This document shows, in pieces, positions 43,563 through 53,705 of a stretch of 64,000 nucleotides of DNA; the stretch's first letter is position 1, and every line of letters begins with the position of its first letter. Below the pieces are notes generated by a model. That model worked only from the letters and a program-made list of their open reading frames with translations. It had not been told where the DNA came from and searched no databases. The DNA is from Enterobacter phage EspM4VN: the sequence record LC373201.2; one strand, written 5' to 3'. The translations under genes were made by a program, and so were the position numbers.

Positions 43563-43630
43563 GATATCCGGTTATTCACTAAACAACAGAGGCTATAATG
43601 GCCTCTGTTTTCGTATTCTAAGAGGATACC

Positions 43631-47428: not shown

Positions 47429-47456
47429 AACCCCGCCATGTGCGGGGTTTCTTTTG
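47429..47456 (+). terminator. intrinsic terminator (AACCCCGC-CATGT-GCGGGGTT, then TCTTTTGG)
   Basis: 8-bp GC stem and a U-run. Confidence 0.75.
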
Positions 47457-47466
47457 GACAAAGAAT

Positions 47467-47868
47467 ATGAAACCTGTCATCTGTGATTACTGCGGCCTCC
47501 CAGCCGAATTCGTCGGTGGTGATGTTCTCTACCCTCATCGCCCTGACCTTCGCAATCTGAAGTTCTGGGTTTGTACCCCATGTGACGCTCGTGTCGGTTG
47601 TCATACCCATGGCGACGGTAGACAGCCTCTGGGAAGGATGGCGAATGCCGCTCTCCGTGCCGAGAAGCAAAATGCCCATAGATCGTTTGACCCACTGTGG
47701 AAAAGCGGAGAAAGGAGCAGGAGCGACGCTTACAGTTGGCTGGCGCATAAGCTGGGGATCAAGAAGCGCGATTGCCATATCGGCTTGTTCGATATCGACA
47801 TGTGCCGTAAAGTAGTTGCTGTATGCAACCAATTACGGGAAACACAGAATGGCAACCATCAATCGTAA
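47467..47868 (+). CDS. small Cys-rich (zinc-finger-like) protein
   Basis: CDYCG ... CTPCDARVGCH. The start may instead be GTG 47440. Confidence 0.35.
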   Translation: MKPVICDYCGLPAEFVGGDVLYPHRPDLRNLKFWVCTPCDARVGCHTHGDGRQPLGRMANAALRAEKQNAHRSFDPLWKSGERSRSDAYSWLAHKLGIKKRDCHIGLFDIDMCRKVVAVCNQLRETQNGNHQS

Positions 47869-48643
47869 TGAACCCAAAGGTGTTGAGCTGAAGGGTAAAT
47901 CTGTTCGCGAAGGTCTGAAGCTGTCTCCAGACCTCCTGAAGTCACACATCGCCGAAGTCATCTATGAAGACCGTGAAGTCGGCGGCCACCGCGTCATCAC
48001 CTGCCACTTCAAGATGGACAACGGATTTATCGTCTGGGGCAAGAATAGCTCTACTTCCATCGACCCTGCCAACTTTGATGAAGAGTTGGGCAAGAAGCTG
48101 GCCTATGACAAGACCTTCTCCCAGTTGTGGGAACTGGAAGCCTACCGCGCCGTCGTAGAGAAGCAGATGTTGGAGGTGGCTACCGCCGATGCGAAGATAG
48201 ACATTTTCCAGTACATCTCCGAAAGGGGGAAGATAAATCAGATGGCTGGCATGGAATTCTTGAAAGGTCATGGCCAGTCTTTCTTGTTCCACCACTCACG
48301 AGATCCGAGTCGAGGGTTCGTTGCTGATTTTGTTCAAACAGACAATGAACGATACAACGACCAACACAACAGTAAAGCCCAAGCTGGGGTGGAAGCATAT
48401 CTGCGTTCGCACATGCTACCAGATGAACTGTATTCTGAACTCGTTGTTCGTCTGGCCAAGACTTGCGCGGCGGCTTACAAGGGTGGGATCTACTTTAATG
48501 CCACCACTTGGGATAAGATGAGCGCTGAAGAACAGAAAGACTGCTGTGAAGACATCAGGCGGCTCTTGCTGGCTCCGGTGGATTATATCCCAACCGACCA
48601 GAAGGACGCGCTGTTCAAGGCCATCGTAGACTCCTACAAATAA
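47852..48643 (+). CDS. hypothetical protein (263 aa)
   Basis: Start taken at ATG 47852 (MATINRNEPKG). It overlaps the end of the upstream ORF. Confidence 0.4.
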   Translation, partial: ATINRNEPKGVELKGKSVREGLKLSPDLLKSHIAEVIYEDREVGGHRVITCHFKMDNGFIVWGKNSSTSIDPANFDEELGKKLAYDKTFSQLWELEAYRAVVEKQMLEVATADAKIDIFQYISERGKINQMAGMEFLKGHGQSFLFHHSRDPSRGFVADFVQTDNERYNDQHNSKAQAGVEAYLRSHMLPDELYSELVVRLAKTCAAAYKGGIYFNATTWDKMSAEEQKDCCEDIRRLLLAPVDYIPTDQKDALFKAIVDSYK

Positions 48644-48673
48644 CTGAATTATCAAACTCCTTCAATAACAATG

Positions 48674-48699
48674 ACGCCCAGTATATTTGCTGGGCGTTT
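48674..48699 (+). terminator. intrinsic terminator (CGCCCAG-TATATTTG-CTGGGCG, then TTT)
   Basis: 7-bp stem plus T's. It is followed by TTTCAA ... 14 nt ... TATAAT (48717-48722), a candidate sigma70-like promoter for the prs/nadV pair. Confidence 0.5.
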
Positions 48700-48753
48700 C
48701 AATTTGTGCATCACAGTATAATACGGCTGTACAATACACCATGAGGCTACATT

Positions 48754-49608
48754 ATGTTTCGTTTGAAATTGAACGACCAAGATGTGTTCTACAAACACTT
48801 CACCTTCCCAGGTGGTGAGGAACACGTCAAGATCCAAAAGGCTGGCATCCCTGTCGGAAGAGTAAGAACCGTGGAAATCGAAGCCCATATCAAAACGTCG
48901 GCAGGCTTCATTGAACTGGCGCTATTAATGGACGCCTTGCGTGGTCTGGGTAACGTGGATCGCATGACGGAATATCACGTCACTATCCCTTACTTCCCAT
49001 ATGCCCGCCAGGATCGCCGTTGCGACTTTGGTGAGCCTCTGTCGGTGAAGTGGGCGGCTGAGTTCATCAATAGTATGAACTTTGACAATGTGTGGATCAA
49101 AGACCCTCACAGCAATGTCGTTACTTCTCTGATCAACAACGTCCATGTGGTCCCGCAAGATTACATCGTGCGTCAGTATCTGGGCTGGTTCATCCGTGGG
49201 AACAACGCTGTGTTGGTAGCCCCTGACGGCGGCGCGGCGAAGAAGACCGAAACCCTCAGCCTGTCATTGGATGGCGTTCCTGTTGTCTACGGGCACAAGA
49301 ATCGTGACACCAAGACTGGTGAGATCATTGGGGTGAGCATTACAAACCCTGAACTGATCAAAGACCGCTATCTGGTAGTGGTCGATGATATCTGTGACGG
49401 TGGGCGCACGTTTGTTGAGCTGGGCAAAGAGCTTCAGAAGCACAAGCCTAAGCACATGACGCTCTTCGTCACCCATGGCATCTTCAGCAAAGGTCTCTCT
49501 GTTTTCGACGGGATCTACGATGCTGTGTATGCCGACACTGTCTGGTGGGAGAACATCACCGCCGACGGTCTTCCTTTCAAAACTGAAAATACAGGACGTG
49601 TAAAATGA
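48754..49608 (+). CDS. prs: ribose-phosphate pyrophosphokinase (PRPP synthetase) family protein; possibly an ADPR-pyrophosphate synthetase (Adps) of an NAD+ reconstitution pathway
   Basis: IPYFPYARQDRR aligns with Prs IPYFGYARQDRR. VVVDDICDGGRTFVELGKEL ... THGIFS is the PRPP-binding loop (VLVDDMIDTGGTL ... THPIFS in Prs). ATGA overlap with the NAMPT gene. Confidence 0.8.
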   Translation: MFRLKLNDQDVFYKHFTFPGGEEHVKIQKAGIPVGRVRTVEIEAHIKTSAGFIELALLMDALRGLGNVDRMTEYHVTIPYFPYARQDRRCDFGEPLSVKWAAEFINSMNFDNVWIKDPHSNVVTSLINNVHVVPQDYIVRQYLGWFIRGNNAVLVAPDGGAAKKTETLSLSLDGVPVVYGHKNRDTKTGEIIGVSITNPELIKDRYLVVVDDICDGGRTFVELGKELQKHKPKHMTLFVTHGIFSKGLSVFDGIYDAVYADTVWWENITADGLPFKTENTGRVK

Positions 49609-51269
49609 GCATGCGCCACTTAGATCCAATCCATGCAATCGACTTCTACAAATCAGGTCACATCTATCAATTCCCTGAAGGCAGCGAGCTGGTGTTCTCC
49701 AACGGAACTCCGCGTTCCAACAAACTGTTCAACTCTCACCTGCCGAAGAACGGCGTGGTGGTCTGGGGTATCCAGGGCTTCATGACCTGGTTCCACGAAC
49801 TGTTTGACGAAGCGTTCTTCCAGCGCCCAAAGGCCAAGGTGCTGAAGAAGTATGCCCGTCGCATGAACAAAGTGCTGGGACCAGGCCGCGTCGGCACAGA
49901 GCATATCGAAGCCCTGCACGACCTCGGCTACCTGCCTATCGAAGTCCGTGCTCTGCCTGAAGGCACCATGTGCCCGTATGGCGTTCCGGTGTATGTGATG
50001 TTCAACACCTTGCCGGAGTTCTACTGGCTGACCAACTATCTGGAGACTGTATTCAGCTCTGAGATCTGGAAGCCGATGACGAACGCCACCATCGCCCTGC
50101 ACTACAAAGCGTTGATGGTGAAAGCTGCTATCGCTACAGGCGTGTCGCCGGACCATTGGTTCATCGACTACCAAGGCCATGACTTCTCCTTCCGTGGTAT
50201 GAGCGGGTGGCATGACGCTGCGTCTTCCGGTTCCGGCCACCTGGTGTTCTTCAAAGGCACCGATACCAACCCTGCCCTAGACTTCGTTGAAGAGTACTAT
50301 GGCGCAGACATCGACGAAGACTATGTCGTTGCTGGCTCCGTTGCGGCTACCGAACACGCCGTGATGTGTATGGGCACGAAGGATGGCGAATTCGAAACCT
50401 TCCGCCGCCTGGTGCAGGACGTGTATCCTGATGGCATCGTCAGTATCGTGTCTGACGCGTGGGACTATTGGCAGGTCATCGACGACTATCTGCCTCGCCT
50501 GAAAGACATTATCATGGCACGCAACGGTAAAGTCGTGATCCGCCCTGACTCGGGCGACCCTGTACACATCGTTGGCGGCTACCGCATTGAATCATTCCGC
50601 AATCGTGGGACGCTTCAGTTAAGCAGCGTGTCCAGCAGCACCGAAGTCATTCACATCGAAGAGACGAACACCTATCACCTGATCACAGGCGAAGGCACGA
50701 TCAACTCTCTGATGGCAGATGACCGCAATATCATCAGCCGTTCTGAAGCGGTCGGCTCTATTCAACGCCTGTGGGAGATCTTTGGTGGCACCCAGACCGA
50801 AACTGGCCACTTCCTGTTGGATGAGCACATCGGTCTGATCTACGGTGACTCCATCACCCTGGCACGTGAAGACCAGATCTTTGGCCGTCTGGCTGGCCGG
50901 AACTTCGCTTCCATCAACGTGGTCTTCGGTATCGGTTCCTACACCTACCAGATGAACACCCGTGACAGCACTGGGACGGCGGTGAAAGCCACGGCTGGTA
51001 AAGTGAACGGTGAATTCCGTGAGATCTTCAAAGAGCCGAAGACTGACAAAGGCGGGACTAAAAAGTCTGCGCGTGGTTTCCTTAAAGTCATTAAAGACTC
51101 TCAGGGTAAACTAGTGTTGGTTGACGGTATCACCTTTGATCAGGTACAAGACGCCGACAACCAGCACCAGCTGGTGTACCGTGATGGTAAGTTCTCCAAC
51201 ACTCAGACTCTGGAAGATGCGCGTGTTCGTGCCGCTCCTCTGGTGGCGGAACTGGCCTCACAAATCTGA
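49605..51269 (+). CDS. nadV: nicotinamide phosphoribosyltransferase family protein (NadV/NAMPT; Namat-like)
   Basis: N-terminal DFYKSGH (NAMPT DSYK.SH motif). 554 aa, typical NAMPT length. Tightly coupled to the upstream Prs-like gene. Confidence 0.8.
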   Translation: MSMRHLDPIHAIDFYKSGHIYQFPEGSELVFSNGTPRSNKLFNSHLPKNGVVVWGIQGFMTWFHELFDEAFFQRPKAKVLKKYARRMNKVLGPGRVGTEHIEALHDLGYLPIEVRALPEGTMCPYGVPVYVMFNTLPEFYWLTNYLETVFSSEIWKPMTNATIALHYKALMVKAAIATGVSPDHWFIDYQGHDFSFRGMSGWHDAASSGSGHLVFFKGTDTNPALDFVEEYYGADIDEDYVVAGSVAATEHAVMCMGTKDGEFETFRRLVQDVYPDGIVSIVSDAWDYWQVIDDYLPRLKDIIMARNGKVVIRPDSGDPVHIVGGYRIESFRNRGTLQLSSVSSSTEVIHIEETNTYHLITGEGTINSLMADDRNIISRSEAVGSIQRLWEIFGGTQTETGHFLLDEHIGLIYGDSITLAREDQIFGRLAGRNFASINVVFGIGSYTYQMNTRDSTGTAVKATAGKVNGEFREIFKEPKTDKGGTKKSARGFLKVIKDSQGKLVLVDGITFDQVQDADNQHQLVYRDGKFSNTQTLEDARVRAAPLVAELASQI

Positions 51270-51310
51270 TAACCGAAGGGGAGGAAACTCCCCTGTTTTG
51301 AGGTCGAGGA

Positions 51311-51481
51311 ATGTCCAAACCATTCAAAAATGCGGGTGTCGACAACCTCGACCGCCGCTTTACTCCATCGGAAACGCTGATGAGCCAGATTGAACTCAAT
51401 CGCGATTTCCTGGAACATATGCTGGTCAAGCCGGAAGGTGAGGCCGAAGACAACCCTGAAGAAGGCAATAACGATGATTGA
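51311..51481 (+). CDS. small acidic protein (56 aa); absent from the ORF track
   Basis: GAGG RBS. Its stop overlaps the vWA gene start (ATGATTGA). Confidence 0.3.
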   Translation: MSKPFKNAGVDNLDRRFTPSETLMSQIELNRDFLEHMLVKPEGEAEDNPEEGNNDD

Positions 51482-53705
51482 ATCATTAGAATTTAAGAAT
51501 GCGGTTGCGACTGCTGCTCCGTCCAACCATGTAATCGTTGTGGACATCTCTTATTCGATGTACCGTGCGCTCCCTGAAGTCCGTAAGCATCTGAAGGAGA
51601 ACCTGCCTTCTCTGGTGAAACCGGAAGACACTGTGAGTGTTCTGTACTTCTCATCCCGTGGCGACTTTGGTACTGTGTTCGCTGGCCGTCAGGTTAGTGC
51701 AGCATCTGACCTGAGTGAGCTGAACAAACTGATCGACCGCTTCCTGCAGCCATCTGGCTGTACTGGCTTTGTTGAGCCTTTAAAGCTGGCGTTCGATACT
51801 GCAGACAGCCTGAAGAAGCCTGGCTATGTCAACAACCTGGCGTTCATGACCGATGGTTATGACAACTGCTGGCGTACCAACGAAATCCTGCTGGTCGCCG
51901 AGACCCTGCCTCATGCATTCGACAACATCACGTTCATCGAATACGGCTGGAACTGTAACCGCGAACTGCTGTCGCAGATGGCTGAACGCTCTGGTGCGAC
52001 TCACGTGTTCGCCGAAGGCCAGACTGAATATCAGACTGAGCTGGAAAACGTTCTGAAGTCCTCGGTGCCGAAGGTTCGTGTCGACATCAGCGCCCTATAC
52101 ACGCATGCCATCTACGTTGAAAATGGCGTAGCAACTGTGTTAGCTGCTCAGTCGGACGTGAAAGATTCGGATATCCCTGGGGTGAAGGTCGAAGTAAGCG
52201 CCTACGTTAACGTCCCTGAGAGCGTCACCAAGCTGTGGGTTGTAAACCCTAACATGATCGACCAGATGGATAGCCTGACGGATATCCAGGCGGCATACGT
52301 GCTGGCGTTCTACGGCGTACACACGATGGACGCAGATCTGGTTTGGGCTGCTCTGAAGAAGACTGGTGACGTGCGCTTCATCAAGCGTTACAACAACTGC
52401 TTCACCAAGCAGGACTACTCCAACATCAAGATCGATCTGGTACAGGCTATCGTTGACGACCAGCTGCGCGGCGTTGAAGGCATCGACTACAACCTGGTTC
52501 CGGCTGAAGACGCAACCACCGTCGTTGATGTGCTGACGTACCTGGCCGAAGCTGGTGTGTCTGTTGCAACCAAGCATCCTATGTTCTCCTATCGCAGCAT
52601 TGGTCGCGGTACTGTGCAGAAAGCCGACGACACCGAAGACAAGCTGGCTGAAGAGATCGCGAATGCTCAGTCCAAAGAAGAGCGTAAAGCCCTGGCTCTC
52701 AAGCTGGCAGAGCACGAAGAGTGGACGCCGTCGTTTGAACCTGCGAACGATCTGGGCGTGGTTCCAATCAGCGACCTGGTCTATAACTCCGAGCGCCCGA
52801 ACATCAGTGTGCGTACAATTCAACACGGTACTGTGGCGGTGCCTGAGTTCGCGCAGAAGAAGTTTGGCCTGCCTGAAGAACTGGACACCTTCCAGTGGCG
52901 CAACTACACCATCGTCAAAGATGGCATCATCAACGTGAAGACCCTGCCGTTCAAGGCTGACGCCGAAGTTGCGACTGTTCTTCATCAGATGGGCGTTCAC
53001 GTGTTCGGTGGCCAGAACGACGTGTTCATCCTGAACCTGGAAAGCGTACCGCTGGTCAACCGCGCCATGACCAAGAACATCAGTGCTGCTCAGTTCTTTG
53101 CCGACAACGTCCGCCTGGAAGCCCTGAAAGGCAAACAGAAGGTGCTGAAGTTCTACCGTGACGCCCTGGTTGGTAAGGGTAACGCCAAAGGTCTGGCTAT
53201 TCAGTACGGTGCCGAGGCCGCAGAATACCTGTCTGGCGTTGGCATCCGTGATTACGGCTTCTCACCGAAGACTGAGACCAAGGAGTCTACCGACTTCTAC
53301 ATGAGCCGTGAGCTGAACGTGAAGATCGCTGGCGCTTCTTCCCTGCCGTCTATCGCAGCGGTGCAGAAGAAGATTGCCGACAAGAAGAACCTGAATGCTG
53401 GTGACATGTTCATCGCCAATGCGCTGAAAGAGTACGATGCATTCGTGAAGTCTCCGGCCATTACTGCTGTACCTGAAGCCGTACAGAAACAGCTGATCGA
53501 AAACTGGATCGACGCTGCTGCCAAGGCGGCCATCACCGAAGTCCGCGCCCTGAACAAGACGCTGTCTAAAGTGGTGTACGGTATCGTTGCTGGCCACGGC
53601 TGGTTCACCGACCTCGATCTGGAAGAGTCAACCATGGAAGTTGAAGTGGATGGCGTGAAGTACAAGGTCACTGCCGAACTGGCAGAGAAAGAGATCAAAA
53701 TCTAA
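51474..53705 (+). CDS. von Willebrand factor A (vWA) domain protein with a long C-terminal extension
   Basis: HVIVVDISYSM is a DxSxS MIDAS motif. It is followed by a Rossmann-like vWA fold (TVSVLYFSSRGD ... LAFMTDGYDN). Total 743 aa from ATG 51474. Confidence 0.6.
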   Translation: MIESLEFKNAVATAAPSNHVIVVDISYSMYRALPEVRKHLKENLPSLVKPEDTVSVLYFSSRGDFGTVFAGRQVSAASDLSELNKLIDRFLQPSGCTGFVEPLKLAFDTADSLKKPGYVNNLAFMTDGYDNCWRTNEILLVAETLPHAFDNITFIEYGWNCNRELLSQMAERSGATHVFAEGQTEYQTELENVLKSSVPKVRVDISALYTHAIYVENGVATVLAAQSDVKDSDIPGVKVEVSAYVNVPESVTKLWVVNPNMIDQMDSLTDIQAAYVLAFYGVHTMDADLVWAALKKTGDVRFIKRYNNCFTKQDYSNIKIDLVQAIVDDQLRGVEGIDYNLVPAEDATTVVDVLTYLAEAGVSVATKHPMFSYRSIGRGTVQKADDTEDKLAEEIANAQSKEERKALALKLAEHEEWTPSFEPANDLGVVPISDLVYNSERPNISVRTIQHGTVAVPEFAQKKFGLPEELDTFQWRNYTIVKDGIINVKTLPFKADAEVATVLHQMGVHVFGGQNDVFILNLESVPLVNRAMTKNISAAQFFADNVRLEALKGKQKVLKFYRDALVGKGNAKGLAIQYGAEAAEYLSGVGIRDYGFSPKTETKESTDFYMSRELNVKIAGASSLPSIAAVQKKIADKKNLNAGDMFIANALKEYDAFVKSPAITAVPEAVQKQLIENWIDAAAKAAITEVRALNKTLSKVVYGIVAGHGWFTDLDLEESTMEVEVDGVKYKVTAELAEKEIKI

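What the first reader, a model, noticed from the sequence alone, without database searches (positions are those of the whole stretch)
48754..51269. Coupled Prs-like + NAMPT gene pair: candidate NAD+ reconstitution (anti-defence) module
A PRPP-synthetase-family gene (IPYFPYARQDRR, VVVDDICDGGRT) overlaps by ATGA a NAMPT/NadV-family gene (DFYKSGH, 554 aa). The pair sits behind its own terminator and a TATAAT-containing promoter. NAMPT plus an NMN adenylyltransferase is the known phage NAD salvage route. A Prs homologue fused operonically to a NAMPT homologue is instead the architecture of the two-enzyme NARP1-type pathway, which rebuilds NAD+ after host NADase defence systems (Thoeris-, DSR-, SIR2-type) deplete it. 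Alternatively Prs simply supplies PRPP to NAMPT. No NMNAT is visible in this window.
Basis: partly seen in the sequence, partly recalled or inferred. Interest (0 to 1): 0.75.

Follow-up and report, generated by a model that had tools for sequence, protein, structure and literature searches.

The report
Known phage NAD+ rebuilding operon (NARP1)
This is an ordinary copy of the two-gene phage pathway NARP1, which rebuilds NAD+ after bacterial defences destroy it, and the same gene pair in sister phages was already listed in the paper that discovered the pathway.

Summary
A 284-aa Prs-like gene (48754-49608) overlaps by ATGA a 554-aa Nampt-like gene (49605-51269), and hairpins bracket the pair. 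The window comes from an Ackermannviridae (Agtrevirus-like) phage, about 91-93% identical in DNA to known ones.

- The Prs-like protein fails every curated Prs cut-off, as the characterised Adps of ICP1, SPbetaL1 and FADO do. It scores 187 bits on a profile of four characterised Adps, against 88 bits for E. coli Prs.
- It lacks the Prs C-terminal module and has the Bas63-type loop DDICDGGRTF.
- The Nampt-like protein is closest to the solved SPbetaL1 Namat. It keeps its NAD+-contact residues and carries the Namat helix motif, with one deviation (Met450 where a Tyr usually stacks on adenine).
- No NMN adenylyltransferase is found in the window or in a complete sister genome.

Orthologues in sister phages (SKML-39, ChubbyThor, maane, P46FS4) are already in the supplementary Adps and Namat tables of Osterman et al. 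2024. A 2024 Ackermannviridae review makes the same link. Nothing here is new in kind. Biochemistry and anti-defence activity remain untested in this phage family. The "own promoter" is only a -10-like TATAAT.

The parts
48673..48698 (+). Upstream hairpin, a likely intrinsic terminator of the preceding gene. It has an 11-bp G+C-rich stem followed by TTTCAATTT.
   Evidence: RNAfold gives -19.2 kcal/mol. The terminator scan reports the same stem-loop, listed on the minus strand. Phage Marshall has an annotated terminator at the equivalent place.
48717..48722 (+). TATAAT, a -10-like hexamer 31 nt upstream of the Adps start codon. No -35 element is present.
   Evidence: Read directly from the sequence. 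The sigma-70 scan found 0 promoters. Seven of the 11 + strand TATAAT hexamers in the window lie in the 8% of DNA that is intergenic. Marshall, which lacks the cassette, has a TATAAT at the equivalent place.
48743..48746 (+). Shine-Dalgarno GAGG, 7 nt before the Adps ATG.
   Evidence: Read directly from the sequence.
48754..49608 (+). adps: ADP-ribose pyrophosphate synthetase (Prs-like, 284 aa). Catalytic Lys182; PP loop D211-D212-I-C-D-G-G-R-T219-F220; no Prs C-terminal alpha11-alpha12 module.
   Evidence: Orthologues are in Osterman Table S1.
49593..49596 (+). Shine-Dalgarno AGGA for Namat, lying inside the end of adps. The ATGA start/stop overlap is at 49605-49608, which suggests translational coupling.
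   Evidence: Read directly from the sequence.
49605..51269 (+). namat: nicotinamide ADP-ribose transferase (Nampt-like, 554 aa).
   Evidence: Orthologues are labelled 'Adps-associated' in Osterman Table S2.
50580..50753 (+). 58-aa insertion in Namat (aa 326-383), directly after the RPDSGDP strand. It is absent from SPbetaL1, FADO and ICP1 Namat. Bas63 and mio have an insertion at the same site.
   Evidence: Alignments. AlphaFold2 predicts a folded, beta-rich subdomain with pLDDT above 90. This is the most variable part of the protein between sister phages. About half of the 120 closest homologues have extra residues at this site.
50934..50966 (+). Selectivity-clamp helix motif GSYTYQMNTRD (aa 444-454): Tyr446 at motif position 3 and Met450 at position 7.
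   Evidence: The motif is defined in PMC12774641.
51277..51294 (+). Downstream hairpin (7-bp stem, GAAA loop) followed by GTTTTG. It is a likely terminator or attenuator at the end of the cassette, 16 nt before the next gene.
   Evidence: RNAfold gives -14.0 kcal/mol. The consensus terminator scan did not call it.

Best explanation
The pair is a NARP1 operon (NAD+ reconstitution pathway 1) of an Agtrevirus-like Ackermannviridae phage. Host NADase defences with SIR2, TIR or SEFIR domains, such as type I Thoeris, DSR1/2 and SIR2-HerA, cleave NAD+ into ADP-ribose and nicotinamide. The first enzyme, Adps, then uses ATP to pyrophosphorylate the terminal ribose of ADP-ribose, giving ADPR-PP. The second enzyme, Namat, replaces that pyrophosphate with nicotinamide and so regenerates NAD+ directly, without NMN and without an adenylyltransferase. 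The two genes are translationally coupled (ATGA overlap). They form an accessory cassette that is present in some Ackermannviridae lineages and absent from others. Shown here: gene structure, family assignment, conservation of catalytic and substrate-contact residues, absence of an NMNAT, purifying selection, and the fact that orthologues are already catalogued. Inferred from characterised homologues and not shown for this protein pair: the two enzymatic reactions and the anti-defence effect.
For: 1. Architecture. A Prs-family and a Nampt-family gene are co-oriented and overlap by 4 nt.
2. Adps versus Prs. The curated Prs model TIGR01251 gives 104 bits (cut-off 113), and the other NCBIfam Prs models give 50-92 bits (cut-offs 296-536). 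Characterised Adps of ICP1, SPbetaL1 and FADO score 96-106 bits on TIGR01251, and E. coli Prs scores 423-532 bits on TIGR01251 and NF002320.
3. A profile built only from the four experimentally studied Adps (ICP1, SPbetaL1, FADO, Bas63) scores the window protein at 187 bits and E. coli Prs at 88 bits.
4. The Prs C-terminal alpha11-alpha12 module is missing. The PP loop DDICDGGRTF is identical to that of Bas63 Adps, and Phe220 replaces the Leu of Prs. The criteria come from PMC13586617.
5. Namat. The best solved relative is SPbetaL1 Namat, 9W5W/9W5X, at E 9e-135 and 453 bits. H. ducreyi NadV scores 356 bits and mammalian NAMPT 173 bits. Foldseek gives TM 0.95 to Namat.
6. The NAD+-contact residues checked are conserved or replaced as in other Namat enzymes, except Tyr396 -> Met450.
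7. The clamp motif GS[YF]TY..xTRD is present.
8. No NadR- or NadD-type NMNAT is found in the window or in the complete sister genome P46FS4 (best E 0.22), and none is annotated there.
9. dN/dS is 0.15 for Adps and 0.04-0.05 for Namat.
10. Agtrevirus orthologues (SKML-39, ChubbyThor, maane, P46FS4) are listed in Osterman et al. Table S1 with 'Yes' in the last column, which I read as Namat-associated. Table S2 labels their Namat 'Adps-associated'.
11. The Ackermannviridae review PMC11721090 links these genes to NAD+ reconstitution.
Against: No enzyme assay or phage-challenge data for any Ackermannviridae NARP1 were found in the searchable literature. The residue that stacks on adenine at clamp position 7 (Tyr396 in SPbetaL1) is Met450 here, a minority variant found in 12 of the 120 closest homologues. 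In SPbetaL1, changes to a single clamp element lowered NAD+ synthesis only 1.3- to 1.7-fold (PMC12774641). The aromatic RF-loop residue Phe92 of ICP1 Adps aligns with Cys90 here, but this position varies among characterised Adps too. Clade membership rests on profile scores and on the published tree. Namat enzymes keep some PRPP-to-NMN activity in vitro, so a minor conventional contribution cannot be excluded.
Confidence: 0.88

Rival explanations
1. Conventional salvage. The first enzyme is a true PRPP synthetase that feeds PRPP to a true Nampt. The NMN produced is converted to NAD+ by host enzymes (NadR, or PncC plus NadD), because the phage has no NMNAT.
For: The Pfam and GenBank annotations read this way. 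Enterobacterial hosts encode NadR and NadD. Namat homologues can make NMN from PRPP in vitro (Osterman et al.; PMC12774641). Met450 replaces one adenine-stacking residue.
Against: The protein fails all curated Prs cut-offs and scores about 100 bits higher on an Adps profile than E. coli Prs does. It lacks the Prs C-terminal module. SPbetaL1 Adps gave no product in the assay meant to test Prs activity, and Bas63 NARP1 still worked in a nadR pncC deletion host (Osterman et al.). Phage Nampt of the PRPP-using clade co-occurs with a phage Nmnat in 94% of cases, and none is present here.
Confidence: 0.07
2. Nucleotide-supply module. The Prs-like enzyme raises PRPP for purine and pyrimidine synthesis during replication, and the Nampt-like enzyme is incidental. 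This was suggested for Agtrevirus phages before NARP1 was described.
For: Proposed in the AV101 comparative genomics paper (PMC10791037). The pair sits among replication and nucleotide-metabolism genes.
Against: The profile evidence against Prs identity is the same as for the first rival. Tight coupling to the Nampt-like gene is conserved across unrelated phage families. The pair is dispensable and patchy: eight of 14 Agtrevirus genomes have it, and it is missing at the syntenic site of the Kuttervirus records examined. That pattern fits an accessory counter-defence function better than core metabolism.
Confidence: 0.03
3. A decaying or inactive remnant of NARP1.
For: Relatives show decay. Shigella phage Ag3 carries an in-frame deletion that fuses Adps aa 1-222 to Namat aa 227-554. 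ICP1_2001_A has an in-frame stop near the Namat N-terminus.
Against: Both ORFs in the window are full length. All catalytic residues are intact. dN/dS is 0.04-0.15. The AlphaFold2 model is highly confident, with mean pLDDT 94.
Confidence: 0.02

Closest known systems
NARP1 of Escherichia phage Bas63 (JohannRWettstein, Felixounavirus), genes 79-80. Deleting the operon sensitises the phage to SIR2-HerA, and ADPR-PP was detected in vivo (Osterman et al. 2024).
   Same: The gene order is Adps then Namat. The Adps PP loop DDICDGGRTF is identical. The catalytic Lys and the acceptor residues are conserved. Namat has Lys at the clamp-loop position and an insertion at the same site after RPDSGDPVHIV.
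   Different: Identity is only 35% for Adps and 46% for Namat (Namat measured against the genus-mate phage mio). The Bas63/mio insertion is longer, about 90 aa against 58. Bas63 has Tyr at clamp position 7 where the window has Met450. The genes are separated by about 45 nt in mio and overlap here.
NARP1 of Bacillus phage SPbetaL1. Adps and Namat were characterised in vitro, and Namat crystal structures 9W5W and 9W5X are available.
   Same: The Adps stop and the Namat start overlap. It is the best solved-structure match (453 bits, TM 0.95). The NAD+-contact residues checked are conserved or conservatively replaced.
   Different: The SPbetaL1 Adps PP loop is DDLSSFGGT. SPbetaL1 Namat lacks the 58-aa insertion, has Arg40 where the window has Lys40, and has Tyr396 where the window has Met450.
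Adps of Vibrio phage ICP1 (structures with ADPR/ATP and with ADPR-PP/AMP, PMC13586617).
   Same: Adps identity is 34-35%. Equivalents of F18, R87, H121, D161, K185, D212, D213, D216 and F221 are all present, and the protein is truncated at the C-terminus in the same way.
   Different: The ICP1 PP loop is CDGAAS and the window has CDGGRT. ICP1 F92 and F223 align with Cys90 and Glu222. The ICP1 genes are about 180 nt apart.
Orthologous pairs in Agtrevirus phages SKML-39, ChubbyThor, maane, P46FS4 and SW16-7.
   Same: These are the same genes at the same locus. Adps is 91-93% identical and Namat about 98% identical at the protein level. Several of them are already listed in Osterman et al. Tables S1 and S2.
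   Different: There is only allelic divergence, concentrated in the Adps N-terminal domain (aa 25-77) and in Namat aa 330-341.
NARP2 (Vibrio phage KVP40 Nampt + Nmnat) and NARP3 (PnuC + NadR-like, Bas30).
   Same: All are phage pathways that restore NAD+ during NADase-based defence. NARP2 also uses a Nampt-family enzyme.
   Different: NARP2 needs a phage Nmnat, and NARP3 needs a NadR-like enzyme plus a transporter. No NadR- or NadD-type gene is found in the window or in the sister genome.
Chromosomal clusters in Bacteroidota with an NrtR-type regulator gene next to Prs-like and Nampt-like genes (Fibrella, Chitinophaga).
   Same: The Prs-like proteins score 189 bits on the Adps profile. The Nampt-like proteins are 50-51% identical to the window Namat and are among the 120 homologues that all carry the clamp motif.
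   Different: They are cellular and lie beside a gene with NUDIX and NrtR winged-helix domains. Their other neighbours are an ADP-ribosylglycohydrolase or a Tpt1-like gene, which suggests housekeeping ADP-ribose recycling and not counter-defence. I did not examine them further.

Membership tests
NARP1 (Adps + Namat operon) | A Prs-family gene and a Nampt-family gene lie adjacent (within 10 genes) and are co-oriented. | tested here: met
   The ORFs 48754-49608 and 49605-51269 overlap by ATGA and carry PF00156/PF13793 and PF04095.
NARP1 (Adps + Namat operon) | The phage has no NMN adenylyltransferase. This separates NARP1 from NARP2 and NARP3. | tested here: met
   tblastn and phmmer --max with E. 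coli NadR and NadD found nothing better than E 0.22 in the window and the complete P46FS4 genome. P46FS4 has no such annotation. The query set was limited to NadR- and NadD-type enzymes.
NARP1 (Adps + Namat operon) | ADP-ribose + ATP gives ADPR-PP, and ADPR-PP + nicotinamide gives NAD+. | not testable with these tools
   This needs LC-MS assays on purified proteins. It has been shown only for homologues from SPbetaL1, ICP1 and DyoEdafos.
NARP1 (Adps + Namat operon) | The operon rescues the phage from NAD+-depleting defences. | not testable with these tools
   This needs deletion and challenge experiments. No Ackermannviridae data were found.
Adps | The protein belongs to the Adps clade and not to canonical Prs. 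| tested here: met
   It is below every NCBIfam Prs cut-off, as the characterised Adps of ICP1, SPbetaL1 and FADO are. It scores 187 bits on a profile of ICP1, SPbetaL1, FADO and Bas63 Adps, against 88 bits for E. coli Prs. PHROG 619 matches at E 1.5e-90. Orthologues are in Osterman Table S1.
Adps | The Prs C-terminal alpha11-alpha12 module is lost. | tested here: met
   The protein is 284 aa against 315 aa for E. coli Prs. The alignment ends about 25-30 residues before the Prs C-terminus, as in all Adps compared.
Adps | The PP loop (donor site) is remodelled and conserved among Adps. | tested here: met
   The window has C214-D-G-G-R-T219-F220, identical to Bas63 and found in 104 of the 120 closest homologues. 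E. coli Prs has IDTGGT-L. The loop differs from the ICP1 (CDGAAS) and SPbetaL1 (SSFGGT) variants.
Adps | The catalytic Lys (ICP1 K185, SPbetaL1 K162) and the acceptor residues R87, H121, D161, D212 and D213 are present. | tested here: met
   The window has K182, R85, H119, D158, D211 and D212. Prs shares these residues, so they show an active enzyme but do not discriminate between the two families.
Adps | An aromatic RF-loop residue contacts the ADPR adenine (ICP1 F92). | tested here: inconclusive
   It aligns with Cys90, and Phe92 lies two residues further on. The position is not conserved among characterised Adps either: Bas63 has Met, and SPbetaL1 and FADO have a gap.
Namat | The protein is closer to Namat than to PRPP-using Nampt/NadV. 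| tested here: met
   SPbetaL1 Namat scores 453 bits, H. ducreyi NadV 356 bits and mammalian NAMPT 173 bits. Foldseek ranks the solved structures in the same order. Orthologues are labelled 'Adps-associated' in Osterman Table S2.
Namat | [quoted passage not shown] | tested here: inconclusive
   The window has GSYTYQMNTRD. Position 3 is Tyr446, which is aromatic and meets the criterion. Position 7 is Met450, which is not aromatic. The authors say the X positions are 'most often' aromatic. Position 7 is Met in 12 of the 120 closest homologues, including the close homologue clusters P0121-P0125 (83-98% identical to the window Namat; P0121 is the ChubbyThor cluster).
Namat | The clamp loop has Arg, Lys or Tyr at its third position. 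| tested here: met
   Lys40 aligns with SPbetaL1 Arg40, as in mio (the Bas63 genus) and FADO.
Namat | The Nampt-like catalytic core is intact. | tested here: met
   D13, Y15, F194, R197, D220, A248, H251, R313, D315, G414, D415, G444, S445, T452, R453 and D454 are conserved.
Canonical ribose-phosphate diphosphokinase (Prs) | The protein reaches the curated NCBIfam score cut-offs. | tested here: not met
   TIGR01251 gives 104.2 bits against a cut-off of 113. NF002320 gives 83.5 against 297. The equivalog models give 50-92 against 296-536. E. coli Prs passes with 423-532 bits on TIGR01251 and NF002320.
NARP2 / NARP3 | A phage-encoded Nmnat (NARP2), or a NadR-like enzyme plus a PnuC transporter (NARP3), is present. 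| tested here: not met
   No NadR- or NadD-type homologue is found in the window or in the sister genome.

The most novel reading that the evidence does not exclude
The Aglimvirinae Namat may be a functional sub-variant. Its Met450 replaces the adenine-stacking Tyr of the selectivity clamp, and a confidently folded 58-aa beta-rich subdomain is inserted right after the catalytic RPDSGDP strand. These features could change donor selectivity, for example dual use of ADPR-PP and PRPP or acceptance of other ADP-ribose derivatives. They could also add regulation or a docking surface for Adps. The evidence does not exclude this, but nothing positively supports it. Bas63-type Namat, which works in vivo, has an even larger insertion at the same site.
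Probability: 0.07. Interest if true: 0.4.

Novelty: already known. Interest (0 to 1): 0.12.

Why it matters
It matters little beyond annotation. In this phage group the genes deposited as 'ribose-phosphate pyrophosphokinase' and 'nicotinamide phosphoribosyltransferase' should be named Adps and Namat (NARP1). The module is accessory. Eight of 14 Agtrevirus genomes have it. It is missing at the syntenic site of the Kuttervirus records examined, at a different position in a Klebsiella phage, and deleted in-frame in Ag3. Its presence may therefore help predict which Ackermannviridae therapeutic phages can plate on hosts armed with NAD+-depleting defences. That use would be practical, not conceptual.

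Tried and rejected
- The sigma-70 promoter scan of 48300-51700 found no -35/-10 pair. I therefore did not accept the 'own promoter' claim beyond a -10-like TATAAT.
- I fetched KVP40 195-245 kb hoping to get NadV and NatV as NARP2 references. The genes are not in that region. I used E. coli NadR and NadD as NMNAT queries instead.
- A literature search for PDB code 9KE8 returned only irrelevant papers. The Foldseek output later identified it as H. ducreyi NadV.
- I tried to count clamp-motif variants in Osterman Table S2. The stored file is cut and the counts appear unreliable. I counted motifs in 120 database homologues instead.
- ICP1 Adps structures appear to be absent from the PDB sequence copy: only Prs chains matched. 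No structural comparison of Adps was made.
- I looked for a RyR-domain protein (RyDEP) or another NAD-related gene next to the pair. The neighbours are a DUF3268 zinc-finger protein, a Phage_gp49_66 protein, a 56-aa ORF and a vWA protein.
Reciprocal profile scores and the published tree were used instead.
Full report
**Observation**

The window carries two + strand ORFs exactly as described. One runs 48754-49608 (284 aa) and the other 49605-51269 (554 aa), and they overlap in the tetranucleotide ATGA. Shine-Dalgarno sequences precede both: GAGG 7 nt before the first ATG, and AGGA 8 nt before the second, inside the first gene. Pfam assigns PF00156 and PF13793 (phosphoribosyltransferase and Prs N-terminal domains) to the first and PF04095 (NAPRTase family) to the second. 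PHROGs assigns them to the phage families 619 and 448.

A strong hairpin lies upstream (48673-48698, -19.2 kcal/mol, T-rich tail). A second lies 8 nt after the stop codon (51277-51294, -14.0 kcal/mol, followed by GTTTTG). TATAAT is at 48717-48722, but no -35 hexamer accompanies it and the sigma-70 scan found no promoter in the region.

Against two sister phages, dN/dS is 0.15 for the first gene and 0.04-0.05 for the second, so both are maintained by selection.

**Source of the window**

The window comes from a member of the Ackermannviridae, subfamily Aglimvirinae, close to Agtrevirus. The best matches are Salmonella and Shigella phages SW16-7, P46FS4, SKML-39, ChubbyThor, MK-13 and Ag3, at about 90-93% nucleotide identity. 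No listed record matched above about 93.5%.

**Is the first protein Prs or Adps?**

The curated NCBIfam Prs models all score it below their cut-offs. TIGR01251 gives 104 bits against 113, NF002320 gives 83 against 297, and the equivalog models give 50-92 against 296-536. Run through the same library, the experimentally characterised Adps of ICP1, SPbetaL1 and FADO behave the same way, at 96-106 bits on TIGR01251. The Adps of mio, a genus-mate of Bas63, reaches 123 bits, which passes that subfamily cut-off but no other model's. E. coli Prs scores 423-532 bits on TIGR01251 and NF002320.

I then did the reverse test. A profile built only from the four studied Adps (ICP1, SPbetaL1, FADO, Bas63) gives the window protein 187 bits and E. 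coli Prs 88 bits. A first version, with mio in place of Bas63, gave 175 against 82.

At residue level (criteria from PMC13586617):
- The catalytic Lys (ICP1 K185, SPbetaL1 K162) is Lys182.
- The acceptor-site residues R87, H121, D161, D212 and D213 are R85, H119, D158, D211 and D212. Prs shares these, so they show an intact active site but do not discriminate.
- The C-terminal alpha11-alpha12 module of Prs is absent, which does discriminate.
- The donor (PP) loop reads C-D-G-G-R-T-F. It is identical to that of Bas63 Adps and present in 104 of the 120 closest database homologues. E. coli Prs has I-D-T-G-G-T-L.
- One ICP1 contact, Phe92 in the RF loop, aligns with Cys90. That position is not conserved among the characterised enzymes either.

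**Is the second protein Nampt or Namat?**

Against all solved structures, the best sequence match is the SPbetaL1 Namat (9W5W/9W5X, E 9e-135, 453 bits). Haemophilus ducreyi NadV follows at 356 bits and mammalian NAMPT at 173 bits. An AlphaFold2 model (mean pLDDT 94.3) ranks the same structures in the same order, with TM 0.95 to Namat.

I mapped the NAD+-contact residues reported for SPbetaL1 Namat (PMC12774641). D13, Y15, F194, S195, R197, D220, A248, R313, D315, G414, D415, G444, S445, T452, R453 and D454 are conserved. Arg40 is Lys40, as in mio and FADO. Ala362 is Ser, as in all the others. Phe392 is Tyr446, as in mio and ICP1.

The Namat signature helix motif GS-X-phi-X-phi-X-phi-TRD reads GSYTYQMNTRD here. 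Position 3 is aromatic, but position 7 is Met450, where the SPbetaL1, ICP1, FADO and mio enzymes have Tyr. Among the 120 closest homologues, position 3 is always Tyr or Phe and position 5 always Tyr. Position 7 is Tyr 92, Met 12, Phe 8, His 7 and Cys 1. Met is therefore a minority allele of the family, and it is the allele of the closest homologue clusters (P0121-P0125, 83-98% identical, including the ChubbyThor cluster). In SPbetaL1, changes to a single clamp element cost only 1.3- to 1.7-fold in activity.

The protein also has a 58-aa insertion (aa 326-383) after the RPDSGDP strand. SPbetaL1, FADO and ICP1 lack it. The Bas63/mio Namat has a longer insertion at the same site. About half of the close homologues have extra residues there. 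The model predicts a folded, beta-rich subdomain with pLDDT above 90. Seven of the ten amino-acid differences from P46FS4 Namat fall within it.

**Is there an NMNAT?**

tblastn and phmmer --max with E. coli NadR and NadD found nothing better than E 0.22. The search covered the window and the complete 158.7-kb genome of the sister phage P46FS4. None of that genome's 212 annotated features is an adenylyltransferase. NadR-like genes do occur in many other phages, including T5-like phages and ICP1, so the method can detect them. This excludes NARP2 (Nampt + Nmnat) and NARP3 (PnuC + NadR-like).

**Prior knowledge**

Osterman et al. (bioRxiv 10.1101/2024.02.11.579819, later in Nature) defined NARP1 from Bas63, SPbetaL1 and FADO. 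They reported it in 859 phage genomes.

Their Supplementary Table 1 (Adps homologues) lists the Agtrevirus proteins JX181829_00048 (SKML-39), OL615013_00159 (ChubbyThor), MT074480_00052 (maane) and MT078988_00049 (P46FS4). Each has 'Yes' in the last column, which I read as Namat association. Their Table 2 lists the partner proteins as 'Adps-associated'. By tblastn, the ChubbyThor and maane Adps are 93% and 91% identical to the window's. The window Namat is 98% identical to the representative of the protein cluster that includes ChubbyThor's.

The AV101 paper found the pair in eight of 14 Agtrevirus genomes and proposed a nucleotide-supply role. The 2024 Ackermannviridae review cites Osterman et al. 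and suggests evasion of NAD+ depletion. I found no paper that tests the pathway experimentally in this family.

**Anatomy of the locus**

Kuttervirus phages have the flanking genes but lack about 2.5 kb. In phage Marshall, the terminator after the gp49-like gene is followed by a TATAAT-containing spacer and then directly by the small ORF and the vWA gene.

In the window, adps, namat and the second hairpin sit between that TATAAT and the small ORF. This suggests the promoter-like element is not specific to the cassette. It also means the genes downstream must be read through, or past, the cassette's hairpin.

In Klebsiella phage Madison the pair sits at a different position in the same region. 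Seven of the 11 + strand TATAAT hexamers in the window lie in the 8% of DNA that is intergenic. This suggests a real -10-like signal, but some of these hexamers are simply hairpin loops.

**Conclusion**

The pair is a NARP1 (Adps + Namat) operon that most likely regenerates NAD+ from ADP-ribose and nicotinamide through ADPR-PP.

It is not new. The orthologous pair of the same phage genus is already catalogued in the discovery paper and mentioned in a family review. What remains untested is the biochemistry and the counter-defence phenotype in Ackermannviridae. Also untested is whether Met450 and the inserted subdomain have any functional consequence. Interest is low.

Noticed in passing
Related phage: Shigella phage Ag3 (protein P0129; PHROG 12872): Ag3 carries a 547-aa in-frame fusion of Adps aa 1-222 to Namat aa 227-554. 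The junction lies at a shared 'FVE' microhomology (DDICDGGRTFVE|EYYGAD). The fusion lacks the Namat N-terminal half and so is probably an inactivated NARP1. It has seeded a chimeric PHROG family, which both window proteins hit.
   Followed up: partly
L001 3844-4030 (Vibrio phage ICP1_2001_A): The Namat N-terminus is annotated as a separate 38-aa CDS. It is in the same frame as nadV and separated from it by an in-frame stop codon. This could be a pseudogene, a sequencing error or a read-through.
   Followed up: no
window 48644-48753 and 51270-51310, compared with L014 2922-3075 (Kuttervirus Marshall) and L015 (Klebsiella phage Madison): The NARP1 pair is an indel. Marshall has an empty site, with a terminator, then TATAAT, then the small ORF. 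Madison carries the pair at another position, directly after the homologue of the 123-aa gene. This region looks like a hot spot for accessory genes.
   Followed up: partly
window, + strand: 11913, 24705, 31281, 36542, 40712, 43594, 48717: Seven of the 11 + strand TATAAT hexamers lie in the 8% of the window that is intergenic, mostly 15-45 nt upstream of start codons and without a -35 box. This may be a phage promoter type that uses only a -10 element. At 43594 the hexamer is the loop of a terminator hairpin.
   Followed up: partly
L016 3361-8174 (Fibrella aestuarina) and L017 4321-8627 (Chitinophaga caseinilytica): These chromosomal clusters encode an NrtR-type regulator, an Adps-like protein and a Namat-like protein. 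Next to them lies an ADP-ribosylglycohydrolase or a Tpt1-like RNA 2'-phosphotransferase. This suggests a cellular ADP-ribose-to-NAD+ recycling route related to NARP1.
   Followed up: partly
GenBank OR844942.1 ('Enterococcus phage Efm 3-10'), hit H7: This 111-kb unannotated record is labelled as an Enterococcus phage but is 92% identical to this enterobacterial Ackermannviridae region. It is probably mislabelled or contaminated.
   Followed up: no
window 47440-47868, 47816-48643, 51311-51481, 51474-53705: The neighbours of the cassette are a DUF3268 zinc-finger protein, a Phage_gp49_66-domain protein, a 56-aa ORF and a roughly 730-aa vWA-domain protein. The start of the vWA gene overlaps the stop of the small ORF by ATGA. 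The functions of all four are unknown.
   Followed up: partly
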